57,859 nucleotides of DNA from the IMG/VR virus record IMGVR_UViG_2880406838_000004; one strand, written 5' to 3'. The DNA is from a virus (Duplodnaviria; Heunggongvirae; Uroviricota; Caudoviricetes). Position numbers: made by a program. Below are positions 6,001 through 24,000 of this stretch, in pieces (the first letter of the stretch is position 1; every line of letters starts with the position of its first letter).

Positions 6001-9000
6001 TAACTAGTTATATCATCTAGGTCGGTATCTGCGCTTTCAAGCCATAACACGGGTAACATTTTACTGCTTGCTCCGTTCCTTGCGCATCTTAGCAAAGCGT
6101 TCTGCCATTCTGCGCTCAACTTCGTCATGGGGAATTGCTGGGCGCGGATCTGCAAGGCTCGTTGCTACTTTCGCACGCAGCCATTCGTTGTAACTGTTTT
6201 CTTGTTCAATGGTTTCAAATTCAGAAACCATTGGTGAAAGGGCTCTATTCATGTTTCCTCCGGTTTTATAACTCAGGCGCGGCGGCATTTTTGCGCCGCA
6301 ATCCATCTCGCTATGAGATCTTCCATTGATTCTTTTTTCTGCTTTAACTCGCTGATTATCTGGCGTTGCTCATCCTCAGGGAAGGCTGAAAAAATCTGCA
6401 ATAATTCCAGTTGATTAGACGTTAACCCTGCATGTGGTGGAGAAACCCCCGGTTGTTCTGCGTATTCCGCATCCAGATACCCTTCCGGCATCCCGTATGT
6501 TTGCTCTATTCTTCTGGCAGCTTTTTCTCCAAACGAGGCTCTCCCACTCATTAGTTGAGATAGGTAGCTCTTCTCTTTGGGTGGCAGAGTTTTATCTTTA
6601 AACCACTCCTTGAGACGTAAACGGCGAATTTCTTTTTTTTGCATGTGGTAATTATCTTTAGTAATCACTAAACAAGCAAATACTTGACTTAATGGTTTAT
6701 TAAACACTAAACTCGCAAAAAAACACTAAACCGAGGAAGGTATGACATTAAAAGAGTTTATTAAATCATTAAGGGTTGGTGATGCTAAGAAATTCGCGGC
6801 CAGACTTGGTGTATCGTCATCTTACTTATCGCAAATGGCGTCTGGACGAACAGCTATATCTCCAACCCGCGCCCTTATGATCGAATCTGCGACGGAAGGC
6901 CAAGTAAGTAGGGCGGAGCTACGACCCCATGATTGGGAGCTTATTTGGCCTGAGTATGCGAGCGGCATTCGTTTGGGGCAAACACATGTAGTTCATGCTG
7001 AAGGTGATTGTAGTGCATGCTTATCTGATGGAGTTGATTCATGAAAATCAAGCATGAACACATCCGCATGGCGATGAATGTCTGGGCGCATCCGGACGGC
7101 GAAAAAGTACCGGCTGCGAAAATTACCAAAGCGTATTTCGAGCTGGGAATGACGTTCCCGGAACTGTATGACGACAGCCATCCGGAAGCCCTGGCCCGTA
7201 ATACCCAGAAAATTTTCCGTTGGCTGGATAAAGACACCCCTGATGCTGTTGAAAAAATGCAGGCTCTGTTACCGGCGATCGAAAAGGCGATGCCGCCTTT
7301 GCTGGTGGCCCGTATGCGCAGCCACAGTTCTGAATATTACCGTGAGATCGTCGAACGGAGGGATCGGCTGGTGAAGGATGTCGATGATTTTGTTGCGTCA
7401 GCGGTTGTTTTGTATGACCAGATGAATCGCGGCGGCCCGGCAGGGAATGCTGTGGTGATGCACTAAAAGCACGGTGTTCGGGGGTTTTATGAGCAGCAAG
7501 CTTCATGGTCTTGTCTGGGAAGGGTGCGCCTTCACCGGCATGATCTTATCCAGGGTGGCGGTTATGGCCCGTCTTGCAGACTACAGCAATGACGAGGGCG
7601 TGTCATGGCCTGCCATTGAAACTATCCGGCGTCAGATCGGTGCAAGAAGTGAATCCACAGTGAAATCGGCTATTGCAGAACTGGCGAAAGAGGGCTGGCT
7701 GACGAAGGAAGAGCGTAAGGTCGGTGGGCGTAATGTAAGCAATATCTATCGGCTTAATGTGGAAAAACTCGAAGCAGCTGCTGCGGCGGCGCGTGAGTCA
7801 TATAAACCGAAAAGAAAAATTAGCCCGGCAAAAAATGACCCGTTAACAGTTGACCCGTCAAATATTGACCCCTCAACGGTTGACCCGTCAAATTTTGATG
7901 GATCAACTGTTGATAAAAAACTGCCGATTAGGGGGGCGATGATTGACCCCGATCCGTCAGTATTAAAACCTGATCCGTCAGATAAAAGATCTTCTTGTCC
8001 GGACGCTTCGCAACCGGACCCGCAGACGGCTGAACAGGATTTTTTAACCCGACACCCTGACGCGGTTGTGTTCAGTGCGAAAAAACGCCAGTGGGGAAGT
8101 CAGGAAGATTTGGTGTGCGCGCAGTGGATCTGGGGACGAATCGTGAGTCTTTACGAGCAGGCGGCCAGCGATGATGGCGAGATCACTAGACCGAAAGAAC
8201 CCAACTGGACAGCATGGGCCAATGACGTTCGCACAATGCGGATGCTGGATGGCAGAACTCACAGACAAATTTGTGAAATGTTTGGGCGTCTCCAGCGGGA
8301 TTCGTTCTGGGTAAAAAACATCATGAGTCCGGCAAAACTCCGGGAAAAATGGGATGAACTGGTTATCCGCCTGGGGCGTTCGCCTGCGCAGCGTTGCGTG
8401 AATCACATTTCTGAACCGGACACTGAAATTCCGCCGGGCTTCAGGGGGTAAGTGTTAATTTCTGGTCATGAGGTAATTTTCAGGAGGGCTTGTGGCAAAA
8501 GTTTTTACACAAGAAGAGCAGGAGAAAATTAAAGGGCAGGTTGTTGAACTCGTACGCCAGAGTGGGCGCGAGACGTTACGACAACTGGAAACTAAAACTG
8601 GGGCAACAAGATATCTGATGAGCGTTCTGGCCAGAGAGCTGGTTGCCAGTGGCGATGTATACAACTCTGGTTACGGGTTATTCCCGTCTGAACAGGCGCG
8701 TAAGGACTGGCAAAATGCCCGTAAAAAGCTCTCAAGGGCAAAGCTGAAGAAACCATCTGCGGTTGATCCGGACCTTATCTGGTCATTACCTGACGGAGAA
8801 ATACGTCGCTACGACAGGCGTCTGAACATAATCTGTCTCGAGTGCCGGAAGAGCGAAGTTATGCAGCGCGTACTGGCGTTTTATCAGGGGAATTTTGAGG
8901 AGGTGTGAACCGCCCCGGGTTTCCTGGAGAGTGTTTTATCTGTGAACTCAGGCTGCCAGATCATCGTTTCCGATGGAAGCATAATAAGCTTTTTCTGCTT

Positions 9001-21000: not shown

Positions 21001-24000
21001 AGGGCGGCAGACTGAACTGTAAGTTCCGCCTGTCAGGCGCACTGACCAACAATCAGTTCGGGCTGGGGATTTATCTGTATACGGATGCTCCCGTTCCTGA
21101 TGGTGTGGCGATGACGGGTACCGGTAATCCGTTCCTGATGTCGTACTTCACTCAGACCACTGACGGCAGAGTGAATCTGATGCATCACAGGAAAGCCGGA
21201 AACACGAAGCTGGGGGAGTTCGGCGATTACGGTAACGACTGGCAGACGCTGGAGCTGGTGTTCACCGCCGGCAGTGCCACGGTTACTCCGAAACTGAATG
21301 GAGTGGCTGGCCCGGCATTCCAGGTTATAAAAGACAGTCTGACACTGTGAACCGCCCCGGGTTTCCTGGAGAGTGTTTTATCTGTGAACTCAGGCTGCCA
21401 GATCATCGTTTCCGATGGAAGCATAATAAGCTTTTTCTGCTTCTGCCGGAGGAGTATGGCCCAGCCTTCCCAGCAATCGTCGATTGTTATACCAGTCCAC
21501 CCACGTTAGTGTGGCCAGTTCCACTTCTGCACGGTTTTTCCAGCTCTTACGGTGTATTACCTCCGCTTTGTAAAGACCATTGATGCTCTCAGCCATCGCG
21601 TTGTCATACGAGTCGCCTGTACTCCCTGTTGATGCCAGTAATCCGGCTTCTTTTAGTCGCTCCGTATAGGCCAGTGACACATACTGAGAGCCTTTATCGC
21701 TGTGATGGATGGTGCCAGACGGACGACGGGCCCACAACGCCTGCTCCAGCGCATCCAGCACGAATGTCGTTTCCATAGACGATGAGACCCGCCACCCCAC
21801 GATGTATCCGGCAAACACATCAATGATAAACGCCACATAGACGAAGCCCTGCCATGTGCTGACGTAAGTAAAATCAGCCACCCACAGCTGGTCAGGTCGT
21901 TCTGCCACGAACTGACGGTTTACGCGGTCGCCTGCGGCAACGGCTTTCCGGCTGATGGTCGTACGGACCTTTTTACCCCGGAGAACACCGGCAAGTCCCA
22001 TAACCGCCATGAGACGTGCCACTGTACATCTGGCCACCCTGATTCCTTCCCGTAACAACTGACGCCAGACTTTACGCACACCGTACACCTGATGATTTTC
22101 ATCGTATACGCGCTGTATCTCTCTCTTCAGCCAGTCGTCGTGCTGCGCACGGGCACTGCGTTTATCCGGATGATGTCGCTGTTGCTGACAATGGTAATAC
22201 GTTGACGGGGCAATATGCAGTTCGCTGCATACCGGTCCGACCCCGTACTGCTCACGCAGCTTATCCAGCAGTGGCATCATTTTTTCCAGAGGCGGTCGAA
22301 CTCCGCCTTCGCAAAATAAGCGGAAGCCTGGCGAAGGATATCGTTACTGCGGCGCAGTTCACGATTTTCACGTTCCAGCTCTTTCAGACGCTGACGTTCA
22401 GCGCTGGTGAGCCCACCATCACCGCCCCCGGTATCCCGCTCATGCTGGCGAACCCAGACACGCAGAGTCTCCGGCGTACAGCCAATCTTTGGGGCAATGG
22501 AACAAATTGCCGCCCACTGTGAGTCATATTCATCCTGACTTTCCAGAACCATACGAATCGCCCGCTGACGGACTTCGGGGGAAAAACGAGTATTTTTAGT
22601 CATCCTGTTTACCTCTTTCTCAGGGAGTTTAGTCTCCAGGATTTCCGGGGCGGTTCACTGGGACTGAATGCGCTGACGCTGACGGATGTTACAAAAAATG
22701 CAGCGTATGGCGTTGAGATAGAAAGTCTGGTGCTGGAGATAAATGCACCGGCAGCATAATAAAAAAAGCCAGCGACTGACCTGAAAAAGAAGACGCTGGC
22801 TAAAAGGCCTTATATGTTTGTAGAGACTTATTTTTCACAGACAGCAATGATGCCTGTCAATATATTATCAATATGCGGATTGTTTCAGTTACAGATGCTT
22901 TATTAAGGAAAAAAACAGCCAGCACTGACTTTCGGTGGAGAGGTGCTGGCTCAAAAGGATAGATGTACTTCACATGTTGCTTCTATATGGCAGTACATTT
23001 TCTGACAGACAGTGACGGATGTTGTCAAGATATTGTGTCATTTATAACCTGAATCGGGGGAGGCCGGAATGTTATCTGGCATTTTTAGCAGAGCCTGAAT
23101 GCCATAATCACGGCTCCCGGAGTTGGCCGTCAGTGGGTGACACTGGCGGCTTTTTTGTTTTCCTTTACTTTCATTTTCTGTCGGCGGTGACGGAGACATA
23201 CATCAGATGGAAAAAATCACAACGGGTGTGTCATACACCACGTCAGCGGTGGGGACGGGATACTGGTTACTGCAGCTGCTGGACAAAGTCTCTCCGTCCC
23301 AGTGGGTGGCGATAGGTGTGCTGGGGAGTCTGCTGTTTGGCCTGCTGACGTATCTGACAAACCTTTATTTCAAGATTAAAGAAGATAAGCGTAAGGCGGC
23401 GCGGGGAGAGTAAAGCGATGAAGAAAAAATACGAACTGGTTGTTAAAGGGATAAATAATTACCCGGATAAGATTACTGTTACTGTGGCACTGGAAATTGG
23501 TGGGTATCCGTCACTGTTGTTGCCAGATGTGGCGATTAGTCTTGACCGTACTGAAGGTGCCACGCTGGAGTTTTACGAAGCTGAGGCGAAAAAGCAGGCG
23601 AAGCAGTTTTTCATGGATGTTGCTGCCGGGTTATGTGAAGGGGATGGTCCGTTGCCGGAAAAGCGGCCCATCATTTTAGAGGCGCAGGATGTGTTGATAA
23701 CCTACAGAGGAAAACTACCGGGAATAATTACGGGTTCTCTGAAGACTCCACCGCTGGCCTGAAGACTTAACATATCCAGGGATTTGAAATCGATAAATCC
23801 TGATAAATATCCATGAACGCAAAAATCAGATACGGCCTGTCGGCTGCCGTTCTGGCGCTGATTGGTGCAGGGGCGTCTGCGCCTGAAATCCTCGACCAGT
23901 TTCTGGATGAAAAGGAAGGTAACCACACCACAGCATACCGTGATGGTACGGGTATCTGGACCATCTGCCGCGGTGCCATCCTGGTGGATGGTAAACCTGT

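What the first reader, a model, noticed from the sequence alone, without database searches (positions are those of the whole stretch)
8906..22657. Three identical IS629 copies in direct orientation, each an independent insertion
Copies at 8906-10215, 13316-14625 and 21348-22657 are each 1310 bp, share orientation and are each flanked by their own 3-bp duplication (GTG, GAT, CTG). They are therefore independent insertions, not recombination products. As direct repeats they are substrates for homologous recombination that would delete 4.4 kb (copies 1-2, removing the AT-rich cassette) or 12.4 kb (copies 1-3, removing Q-like gene, methylase, tRNAs and most of nanS-p).
Basis: seen in the sequence. 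Interest (0 to 1): 0.55.

Follow-up and report, generated by a model that had tools for sequence, protein, structure and literature searches.

The report
Three IS629 insertions in a prophage

Summary
The copies at 8906-10215, 13316-14625 and 21348-22657 are 1310 bp, 100% identical and in direct orientation, with the transposase on the minus strand. Each has its own 3-bp duplication (GTG, GAT, CTG).

The element is the IS3-family IS629/IS1203 isoform common in EHEC. The window is a potC-integrated lambdoid prophage of E. coli O111, 99.97% identical to strain 11128. Its first 24 kb, including all three IS, match strain 14614.

All three copies are independent insertions, because exact empty sites exist:
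- The sites of copies 1 and 3 are empty in 11128.
- The copy 2 site is empty in O26:H11 and some O111:H8 genomes, where hokD is intact.

The predicted 4.4-kb deletion between copies 1 and 2 is real. Fifteen complete O111 genomes carry one IS flanked by the left flank of copy 1 and the right flank of copy 2. Junction variants show at least two independent deletion events. Two further genomes then lost the remaining IS with 4-5 bp of flank, which resembles IEE-type excision.

Copy 3 occurs only in 14614, and no 8.0-kb or 12.4-kb deletion was found.

Verdict: the reading is correct, but this is known IS629 biology. Interest is low to moderate.

The parts
8906..10215 (-). IS629/IS1203 copy 1 (1310 bp). 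orfA is at 10161..9835, orfB at 9838..8948 and the ALIL frameshift pseudoknot at 9880..9764. The TSD is GTG at 8903-8905 and 10216-10218. It is inserted 2 codons before the stop of the DUF977 gene.
   Evidence: The empty site is exact in 11128. The left junction is shared by 18 O111 genomes. The intact right junction is found only in 14614.
13316..14625 (-). IS629/IS1203 copy 2. The TSD is GAT at 13313-13315 and 14626-14628. It is inserted in codon 12 of a hokD-like toxin gene. This separates the sok/mok leader and hok start (left) from the rest of hok (right).
   Evidence: The empty site with intact hokD is found at 100% identity in at least 15 genomes. The left junction is present in 18 O111 genomes including 11128.
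21348..22657 (-). IS629/IS1203 copy 3. The TSD is CTG at 21345-21347 and 22658-22660. It is inserted in nanS-p (a SASA-family sialate O-acetylesterase) and removes the last 32 of 616 codons.
   Evidence: The empty site is exact in 11128. Both junctions are found only in strain 14614 among 5426 complete genomes.
8492..8908 (+). DUF977 gene. It is 138 aa here and 140 aa at the empty site. Its stop codon is now supplied by the TGA at the IS end.
10216..13315 (.). The 3.1-kb segment bracketed by copies 1 and 2, which is lost in the 4410-bp deletion. It contains two small ORFs (10224-10478, 10471-10782), the sce7726-family gene (11088-11666, +), the Beta_protein gene (12723..11626, -; 34-42% GC), sok (13111-13286) and the first 11 codons of hok (13281-13315).
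   Evidence: The segment is absent in 15 + 2 O111 genomes.
14626..14749 (+). The 3' part of the disrupted hok gene. PGAP annotates a 46-aa hybrid 'Hok/Gef family' ORF that starts inside the IS end at 14609.
14626..21347 (+). The 6.7-kb segment bracketed by copies 2 and 3. It contains DUF968/HNH (15191-16246), RusA (16247-16612), the Q-like antiterminator DUF1133 (16621-17151), a DNA methyltransferase (17741-18799), tRNA-Ile(CAU, called Met by ARAGORN) at 18840-18915, tRNA-Arg(UCU) at 18996-19072, the sRNAs STnc100 and AgvB, and truncated nanS-p (19596-21350).

Best explanation
Three separate copy-out-paste-in transpositions of the EHEC insertion sequence IS629 (IS1203 isoform, IS3 family) hit one defective lambdoid prophage of E. 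coli O111, integrated next to potC. Their inferred order is as follows. Copy 2 is oldest; it lies in hok and is shared by 18 complete genomes. Copy 1 came next, at the end of the DUF977 gene, in a sub-lineage. Copy 3 is most recent; it lies in nanS-p and is seen only in strain 14614 and the window's source.

Because the copies are identical and direct, homologous recombination between them excises the intervening DNA plus one IS. This leaves one IS whose two flanking triplets no longer match. That event has happened at least twice for the copy 1-copy 2 pair in natural O111 strains. It removed a candidate phage-defence cassette together with sok.

The remaining IS can then be lost, leaving a small scar. 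This is most likely transposase/IEE-promoted excision.

Shown: the identity of the copies, the TSDs, the empty sites, the deletion products and the IS-less scars. Inferred: the order of insertion, RecA-type recombination as the deletion mechanism, and IEE involvement.
For: Identity and TSDs.

IS3-family anatomy.

Empty sites: 11128, copies 1 and 3; copy 2, intact hokD.

Distribution of the copies:
- Copy 1 left junction: 18 genomes.
- Copy 2 left junction: 18 genomes.
- Copy 3 junctions: 14614 only.
- Intact copy 1 right junction: 14614 only.

Deletion product. In 15 genomes the left flank of copy 1 and the right flank of copy 2 are separated by 1310 bp, at 100% identity. In E2855 the intervening DNA is the identical IS, flanked by GTG on the left and GAT on the right.

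Independent recurrence. RM9131 keeps both copies. Its Salinas sister RM9975 has the deletion. Both share a left junction 2 bp shorter (8903) than that of E2855 (8905).

IS-less scars. In 08-4377, position 8905 is joined to 14631. In 08-3342, position 8903 is joined to 14630.

Literature:
- 62% of IS629 copies lie in prophages, and 3-4-bp TSDs are found at only 21 of 47 sites (PMC3271280).
- IEE promotes precise excision and IS-adjacent deletions, and is present in O111:H8 (PMC9943667; bioRxiv 10.1101/2023.06.07.543989).
Against: The mechanism of the 4.4-kb deletion is not directly shown. A single IS with hybrid flanks is what RecA recombination predicts, but no recA or iee genetics exist for this locus.

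The order of insertion is not fully resolved. OkiPb01689 has copy 1 with an intact hokD, so all four presence/absence combinations of copies 1 and 2 exist. This requires at least one precise excision, a repeated insertion or a recombinational replacement.

The prophage is almost invariant among strains, so no tree could be built to count events.

Presence of iee in these particular strains was not checked.

The window's own genome is not in the complete-genome collection. Its late region matches 11128, not 14614.
Confidence: 0.88

Rival explanations
1. The deletions between and next to the IS copies are made by the IS629 transposase together with the IS-excision enhancer IEE, not by RecA-type recombination. 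In this route, aberrant strand transfer or end-joining at microhomology removes DNA adjacent to an IS.
For: IEE-dependent events in EHEC include precise excision and IS-adjacent deletions ranging from a few nucleotides to more than 40 kb. Several observations here fit this better than IS x IS crossover:
- A 412-bp deletion lies immediately right of copy 1 in RM9131 and OkiPb01689 (8905 or 8903 | IS | 10628).
- RM9131 and RM9975 have lost 2 bp at the left junction.
- Two IS-less scars have 4-5 bp missing and about 1 bp of microhomology.
Against: In the 15 E2855-type genomes and RM9975, the right-hand end point falls exactly on the outer end of copy 2 (14626). In the E2855 type the left-hand end point also falls exactly on the outer end of copy 1 (8905). 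A complete, identical IS is retained. This is the specific signature of crossover within the IS. An IEE-type adjacent deletion would have to end precisely at the inner boundary of the second IS by chance.
Confidence: 0.1
2. Copies 1 and 2 with the cassette between them form a composite transposon that inserted, or can move, as one 5.7-kb unit carrying the defence-like genes.
For: Two identical direct IS copies bracket a 3.1-kb low-GC accessory cassette. This is the formal architecture of a compound transposon.
Against: The outer flanks do not form a duplication (GTG versus GAT), while each IS has its own. The cassette sits at the same place with no IS in O26:H11 and O111:H8 genomes, and with only copy 2 in 11128. 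The inner junction IS-cassette occurs at only one place in 5426 genomes, so there is no sign of the unit at any other locus.
Confidence: 0.02

Closest known systems
IS629 / IS1203 (IS3 family) in EHEC O157:H7, O26 and O111 genomes (Ooka et al. 2009 from memory; Rump et al. 2011, PMC3271280)
   Same: The element matches in these respects: 1310 bp, an orfA/orfB pair with a -1 frameshift and pseudoknot, TG...CA ends, a 3-bp TSD, preference for prophages, many identical copies per genome, gene inactivation and small structural polymorphisms. Copies 100% identical to those here occur in O157:H7 and O111 genomes.
   Different: Nothing differs in kind. The three specific sites (DUF977 3' end, hok codon 12, nanS-p codon 585) and their combination are particular to an O111 sub-lineage. 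Copy 3 is so far seen only in strain 14614.
IS-mediated deletion by recombination between direct IS copies (a classical mechanism, e.g. IS1- or IS629-flanked deletions)
   Same: The deletion product is one IS with non-matching flanking triplets and loss of the intervening 3.1 kb plus one IS. This is exactly what is seen in E2855 and 14 other genomes.
   Different: Here the intermediate (both copies with intact TSDs), both parental empty sites, the product and the later IS-less scar are all available as natural genomes. This is an unusually complete series.
IEE (IS-excision enhancer)-promoted IS629 excision and adjacent deletion (Kusumoto et al. 2011, cited in PMC9943667)
   Same: IS-less junctions with a few bp missing are seen in 08-4377 and 08-3342. 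IS-adjacent deletions of 2 bp and 412 bp are seen in RM9131 and OkiPb01689. hokD is apparently restored precisely in OkiPb01689.
   Different: IEE involvement is inferred from the scar type and from published presence of iee in O111:H8. The iee gene was not looked for in these strains and no experiment exists for this locus.
IS-inactivated chromosomal hok/sok loci of E. coli K-12 (Pedersen and Gerdes 1999, from memory)
   Same: A hok-family toxin gene is inactivated by an insertion sequence while sok remains next to it.
   Different: In K-12 the IS elements (IS150, IS186) lie beside the hok reading frames. Here IS629 splits hok itself at codon 12, in a prophage-borne hokD-like locus.

Membership tests
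IS3 family insertion sequence | Two consecutive, partly overlapping ORFs (orfA, orfB) with orfB in the -1 frame and a DDE transposase | tested here: met
   orfA is 108 aa and orfB is 296 aa, overlapping by ATGA. NCBIfam transpos_IS3 scores 316 bits for orfB against a cut-off of 160, and orfA matches the N-terminal part of the same model. PGAP annotates a joined CDS with 'programmed frameshift'.
IS3 family insertion sequence | Frameshift-stimulating RNA structure at the orfA/orfB overlap | tested here: met
   The Rfam ALIL pseudoknot RF01497 scores 121.5 bits (gathering score 50) in each copy, on the transposase strand.
IS3 family insertion sequence | Imperfect terminal inverted repeats ending 5'-TG...CA-3' | tested here: met
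   The ends are TGAACCGCCCCGG... and ...CCGGGGCGGTTCA. The first 13 positions are identical and 22 of the first 25 match.
IS3 family insertion sequence | 3-4 bp target-site duplication generated on insertion | tested here: met
   The 3-bp duplications GTG, GAT and CTG are each confirmed by an exact empty site carrying one copy of the triplet.
IS629 (ISfinder name; isoform IS1203) | Near-identity to the reference IS629/IS1203 sequence (1310 bp) | tested here: inconclusive
   No ISfinder reference was available. The length is 1310 bp. Copies 100% identical to these occur in O157:H7 and O111 genomes and are named 'IS3-like element IS1203 family' by PGAP. The literature treats IS1203 of O111:H- as an IS629 isoform. 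The subtype (IS1203-like versus Shigella IS629) was not resolved against references.
Composite (compound) transposon | A single target duplication at the outer ends of the two bracketing IS copies, with the unit absent from the empty site | tested here: not met
   The outer triplets are GTG and GAT. The cassette is present without any IS in other genomes. The inner junction is found at only one locus.
IS x IS homologous-recombination deletion | The product carries one complete IS flanked by the distal flank of each parental copy, without a matching TSD | tested here: met
   In E2855 the identical 1310-bp IS lies between ...GAGGAGGTG and GATCGTCATC.... The same span is seen in 15 genomes.
IEE-promoted IS629 excision | An iee gene is present in the host and the excision depends on it | not tested
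   Only scar-type evidence and published presence of IEE in O111:H8 are available.

The most novel reading that the evidence does not exclude
The copy 1-copy 2 pair may act as a recurrent, one-way 'off switch' for a prophage-borne anti-phage defence cassette (Beta_protein / sce7726, PD-Lambda-2-like). In this reading, copy 2 first disarmed the neighbouring hok toxin, so that later loss of sok together with the cassette was not lethal. The IS x IS deletion then arose repeatedly and spread: 15 of 18 complete genomes that keep the copy 1 left junction carry it, and only one retains the intact two-copy state. This would mean selection, not just instability, shapes the locus.
Probability: 0.12. Interest if true: 0.45.

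Novelty: already known. Interest (0 to 1): 0.25.

Why it matters
IS629 copy number and position are used to type EHEC strains, and IS629 is a known driver of small structural variation in them. This locus offers a compact, fully sequenced natural series: empty sites, single insertions, a double insertion, the recombination deletion and finally IS loss. That series could serve as a teaching example or as a PCR-scorable marker set for O111 sub-lineages.

In practice, the prophage's Q-like antiterminator, methylase, tRNAs, sRNAs and nanS-p esterase in strain 14614-like genomes sit between direct repeats and can be expected to drop out. The defence-like cassette has already been lost in many O111 strains.

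None of this changes current understanding of IS biology.

Tried and rejected
(1) Looked for the window verbatim in the complete E. coli genomes. It was not found. It is 99.97% identical to 11128 apart from the two extra IS. It differs from 14614 by one SNP up to position 24092, after which 14614 diverges.

(2) Looked for the copy 1-3 and copy 2-3 deletion products through the right junction of copy 3. Only 14614 has that junction, so no such variants exist in the collection.

(3) Tested the composite-transposon idea. It was rejected.

(4) Tried to use SNPs in the prophage flanks to order the events. Only five variable positions were found in about 12.8 kb across ten genomes (window, 14614 and eight other O111 strains; one of them compared only in the right-hand 3.9-kb segment), which is too few. 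One SNP, G at 8121, links the window to 14614.

(5) Considered that the 412-bp deletion in RM9131 and OkiPb01689 came from crossover with the extra IS seen in TW05614. The junctions differ by 17 bp (10611 versus 10628), so this particular copy cannot be the source.

(6) The first attempts to read loci L003 and L005 in Python failed, because loci fetched in one turn are stored in one file. This was solved by reading all records.
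Full report
OBSERVATION

A repeat search and a direct comparison show that 8906-10215, 13316-14625 and 21348-22657 are each 1310 bp. They have no mismatches in any pair and lie in the same orientation. Start-to-start spacings are 4410 and 8032 bp, so copies 1 and 3 are 12442 bp apart.

The three bases on each side of each copy are the same: GTG, GAT and CTG. The finding is therefore correct as written. The only refinement is that the transposase genes read on the minus strand (orfA 10161..9835, orfB 9838..8948). This is opposite to the prophage genes they interrupt.

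WHAT THE ELEMENT IS

- orfB scores 316 bits against NCBIfam transpos_IS3 (cut-off 160). orfA matches the N-terminal part of the same model.
- Each copy carries an ALIL frameshift pseudoknot (Rfam RF01497, 121.5 bits).
- The ends are imperfect inverted repeats beginning TG and ending CA, with 22 of the first 25 positions matching.
- Identical 1310-bp copies are found in O157:H7, O111 and other E. coli genomes. There NCBI's pipeline names them 'IS3-like element IS1203 family transposase'.
- IS1203 was described from O111:H- and is treated as an isoform of IS629 (PMC3271280).

I could not align the element to the ISfinder references. 'IS629' is therefore right at the level of the IS629/IS1203 group, and the subtype was not fixed.

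WHERE THE WINDOW COMES FROM

Positions 1-28627 and 26589-57859 align at 99.97-99.99% to the lambdoid prophage integrated between potC and potB in E. coli O111:H- strain 11128. The only structural differences are the two extra IS copies.

The prophage runs from the integrase (1-1119, minus strand) to the type III effector genes nleL and espN near the right end. Positions 1-24092, including all three IS copies, differ by a single SNP from O111:NM strain 14614 (NZ_CP077460.1). Beyond the lysozyme gene, 14614 diverges.

The window's own genome is thus a close relative of 14614 that is not in the complete-genome collection. One SNP (G at 8121) is shared only by the window and 14614.

INDEPENDENT INSERTIONS

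Strain 11128 carries only copy 2. At the positions of copies 1 and 3 it has exactly 'left flank + one triplet + right flank'.

The reconstructed empty site of copy 2 is found at 100% identity over 600 bp in at least 15 genomes. These are O26:H11 strains and the O111:H8 strains 99.1145 and 8E. There it lies inside an intact hokD toxin gene.

The copies also differ in distribution among 5426 complete genomes:
- The left junction of copy 2 is in 18 genomes.
- The left junction of copy 1 is in 18 genomes.
- Both junctions of copy 3 are only in 14614.

The simplest order is copy 2, then copy 1, then copy 3. However, OkiPb01689 has copy 1 with an intact hokD. All four combinations of copies 1 and 2 therefore exist, and at least one precise excision, repeat insertion or recombinational replacement must have occurred.

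EFFECTS ON GENES

- Copy 1 lies two codons before the stop of a DUF977 gene. It separates that gene from the overlapping downstream ORF.
- Copy 2 splits the hok toxin ORF in codon 12. sok (13111-13286) is left on one side and the 3' part of hok on the other.
- Copy 3 removes the last 32 of 616 codons of the nanS-p-type sialate O-acetylesterase.
- In copies 1 and 3 the TGA at the IS end supplies the new stop codon.

Between copies 2 and 3 lie a DUF968/HNH gene, rusA, a DUF1133/antiterminator-Q-like gene, a DNA methyltransferase, two tRNAs and two sRNA loci.

THE PREDICTED DELETION EXISTS

I searched with 1000 bp left of copy 1 joined to 1000 bp right of copy 2. Fifteen complete O111 genomes hold these two flanks 1310 bp apart at 100% identity.

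In E2855 the intervening DNA is the identical IS. It is flanked by ...GAGGAGGTG on the left and GATCGTCATC... on the right. One IS is kept, the flanking triplets do not match and 4410 bp are gone. This is the expected product of crossover between copies 1 and 2.

The intact right junction of copy 1 is found only in 14614. The undeleted two-copy state with both duplications is therefore rare among sequenced strains.

AT LEAST TWO INDEPENDENT DELETIONS

RM9131 and RM9975 are two isolates from Salinas, California, with almost identical coordinates. They share a left junction that is 2 bp shorter (8903 instead of 8905).
- RM9131 still has both IS copies and the cassette, with an additional 412-bp deletion right of copy 1.
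- RM9975 has a single IS joined to the right flank of copy 2.

The E2855-type genomes have the 8905 junction. A single deletion event could explain both types only if the 2-bp loss had happened twice.

LATER LOSS OF THE REMAINING IS

In O111:NM 08-4377 the left flank (to 8905) is joined directly to 14631. In O111:H2 08-3342 the left flank (to 8903) is joined to 14630. Neither has an IS.

These junctions fuse the end of DUF977 to the middle of hok, so they can only derive from the deletion products. They are two different scars with 4-5 bp missing and about 1 bp of microhomology.

This pattern, the 2-bp and 412-bp IS-adjacent deletions, and the apparently restored hokD of OkiPb01689 all match published IS629 behaviour. 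In the presence of the IS-excision enhancer IEE, precise excision and adjacent deletions from a few bases to tens of kb occur. IEE is present in O111:H8 (PMC9943667; bioRxiv 10.1101/2023.06.07.543989). I did not check iee in these strains, so IEE involvement is an inference.

A further independent IS629 insertion lies at 10611-10613 (TSD ATA) in TW05614. This shows that the few kilobases around the cassette are hit often.

WHAT WAS NOT FOUND

No genome has the copy 2-3 (8032 bp) or copy 1-3 (12442 bp) deletion. This is expected, because copy 3 is confined to one sequenced strain.

The IS-cassette-IS unit is not a composite transposon in origin:
- The outer triplets differ.
- The cassette pre-exists without IS.
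- The inner junction occurs at only one locus.

MECHANISM AND CONFIDENCE

The following are shown directly: three separate insertions, a 3-bp duplication at each, and recombination-type deletion between copies 1 and 2.

RecA-type crossover is inferred as the route for the 4.4-kb deletion. In the E2855 type both end points coincide exactly with the outer IS ends (in RM9975 the left junction is 2 bp shorter), and a whole IS is kept. The IEE/transposase route is the better explanation for the small adjacent deletions and for the IS-less scars.

COMPARISON WITH WHAT IS KNOWN

All of this is established IS629/EHEC biology.
- IS629 is concentrated in prophages (62% of copies).
- Fewer than half of its sites keep a matching duplication (21 of 47). 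This itself implies frequent secondary rearrangement.
- With at least 40 copies in 14614 (at the reporting cap), three copies in 58 kb is a modest local excess. The Poisson probability is about 0.01 if insertion were uniform, in line with the known prophage bias.

The arrangement is present in a public genome. I therefore rate it 'already known' with low-to-moderate interest.

The least ordinary reading still open is that loss of the defence-like cassette is selected. The Beta_protein gene hits PADLOC PD-Lambda-2_C at 1.4e-40 and the sce7726 gene hits 'cll' at 2.4e-28. In this reading the earlier IS hit in hok made the loss possible. I give this a probability of about 0.12.

Noticed in passing
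window 11088-12723: The low-GC (34-42%) two-gene cassette encodes an sce7726-family protein and a Beta_protein-family protein. They match PADLOC models 'cll' (2.4e-28) and PD-Lambda-2_C (1.4e-40). This is a candidate anti-phage defence module carried as a prophage moron. It is the DNA removed by the 4.4-kb deletion.
   Followed up: partly
window 13111-13315 and 14626-14749: This is a prophage hok/sok locus. An Rfam sok hit lies at 13111-13286 and hok starts at 13281. IS copy 2 splits hok in codon 12. PGAP still annotates a 46-aa 'Hok/Gef family' ORF that begins inside the IS end.
   Followed up: partly
window 19182-19451: Two sRNA loci lie between the tRNAs and nanS-p: STnc100 (19182-19390, +, 175 bits) and the anti-GcvB sRNA AgvB (19392-19451, -, 56.6 bits, just above gathering). 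Both lie between IS copies 2 and 3.
   Followed up: no
window 33054-33839: There are four or more tandem copies of a 162-bp unit (82-92% identical) inside the portal gene region. The portal gene is annotated as a frameshifted or split pseudogene in both 11128 and 14614, which suggests the prophage is defective.
   Followed up: no
window 24093 onward versus NZ_CP077460.1 (L004/L005): Strain 14614 matches the window with one SNP up to 24092, then diverges to 88-98% identity. Its prophage ends next to uspF/ompN/nifJ instead of potB. This indicates recombination or inversion between two lambdoid prophages in 14614. The window keeps the 11128-type late region.
   Followed up: partly
window 50774-57114: The type III secretion effector genes nleL (50774-53122) and espN (53713-57114) sit at the right end of the prophage. 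They are followed by gogB and transposase remnants, where the window ends. Coordinates were transferred from the 11128 annotation.
   Followed up: no
L009 (TW05614) 9696-11005, equivalent to window 10611-10613: A fourth, independent IS629 insertion (TSD ATA) lies in the 103-aa ORF of the cassette region in O111:H8 TW05614, which lacks copy 1. RM9131 and OkiPb01689 have a 412-bp deletion ending 15 bp away, at 10628.
   Followed up: partly
one search hits H123-H150 (O104:H4 and relatives): In O104:H4-type prophages the DUF977 and hok/DUF968 flanks (about 96% identical) are separated by a different insert of about 1.1 kb annotated as epoxyqueuosine reductase QueH. The slot between the replication genes and hok is therefore a variable cargo site.
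   Followed up: no
window 18840-18915: ARAGORN calls this tRNA Met (CAT). PGAP annotates the same gene as tRNA-Ile. This is the usual ileZ-type lysidine tRNA of Stx-like phages. Here a DNA methyltransferase gene lies upstream of the tRNAs (Q-like, methyltransferase, tRNAs, nanS-p) and no stx genes are annotated in this region.
   Followed up: no
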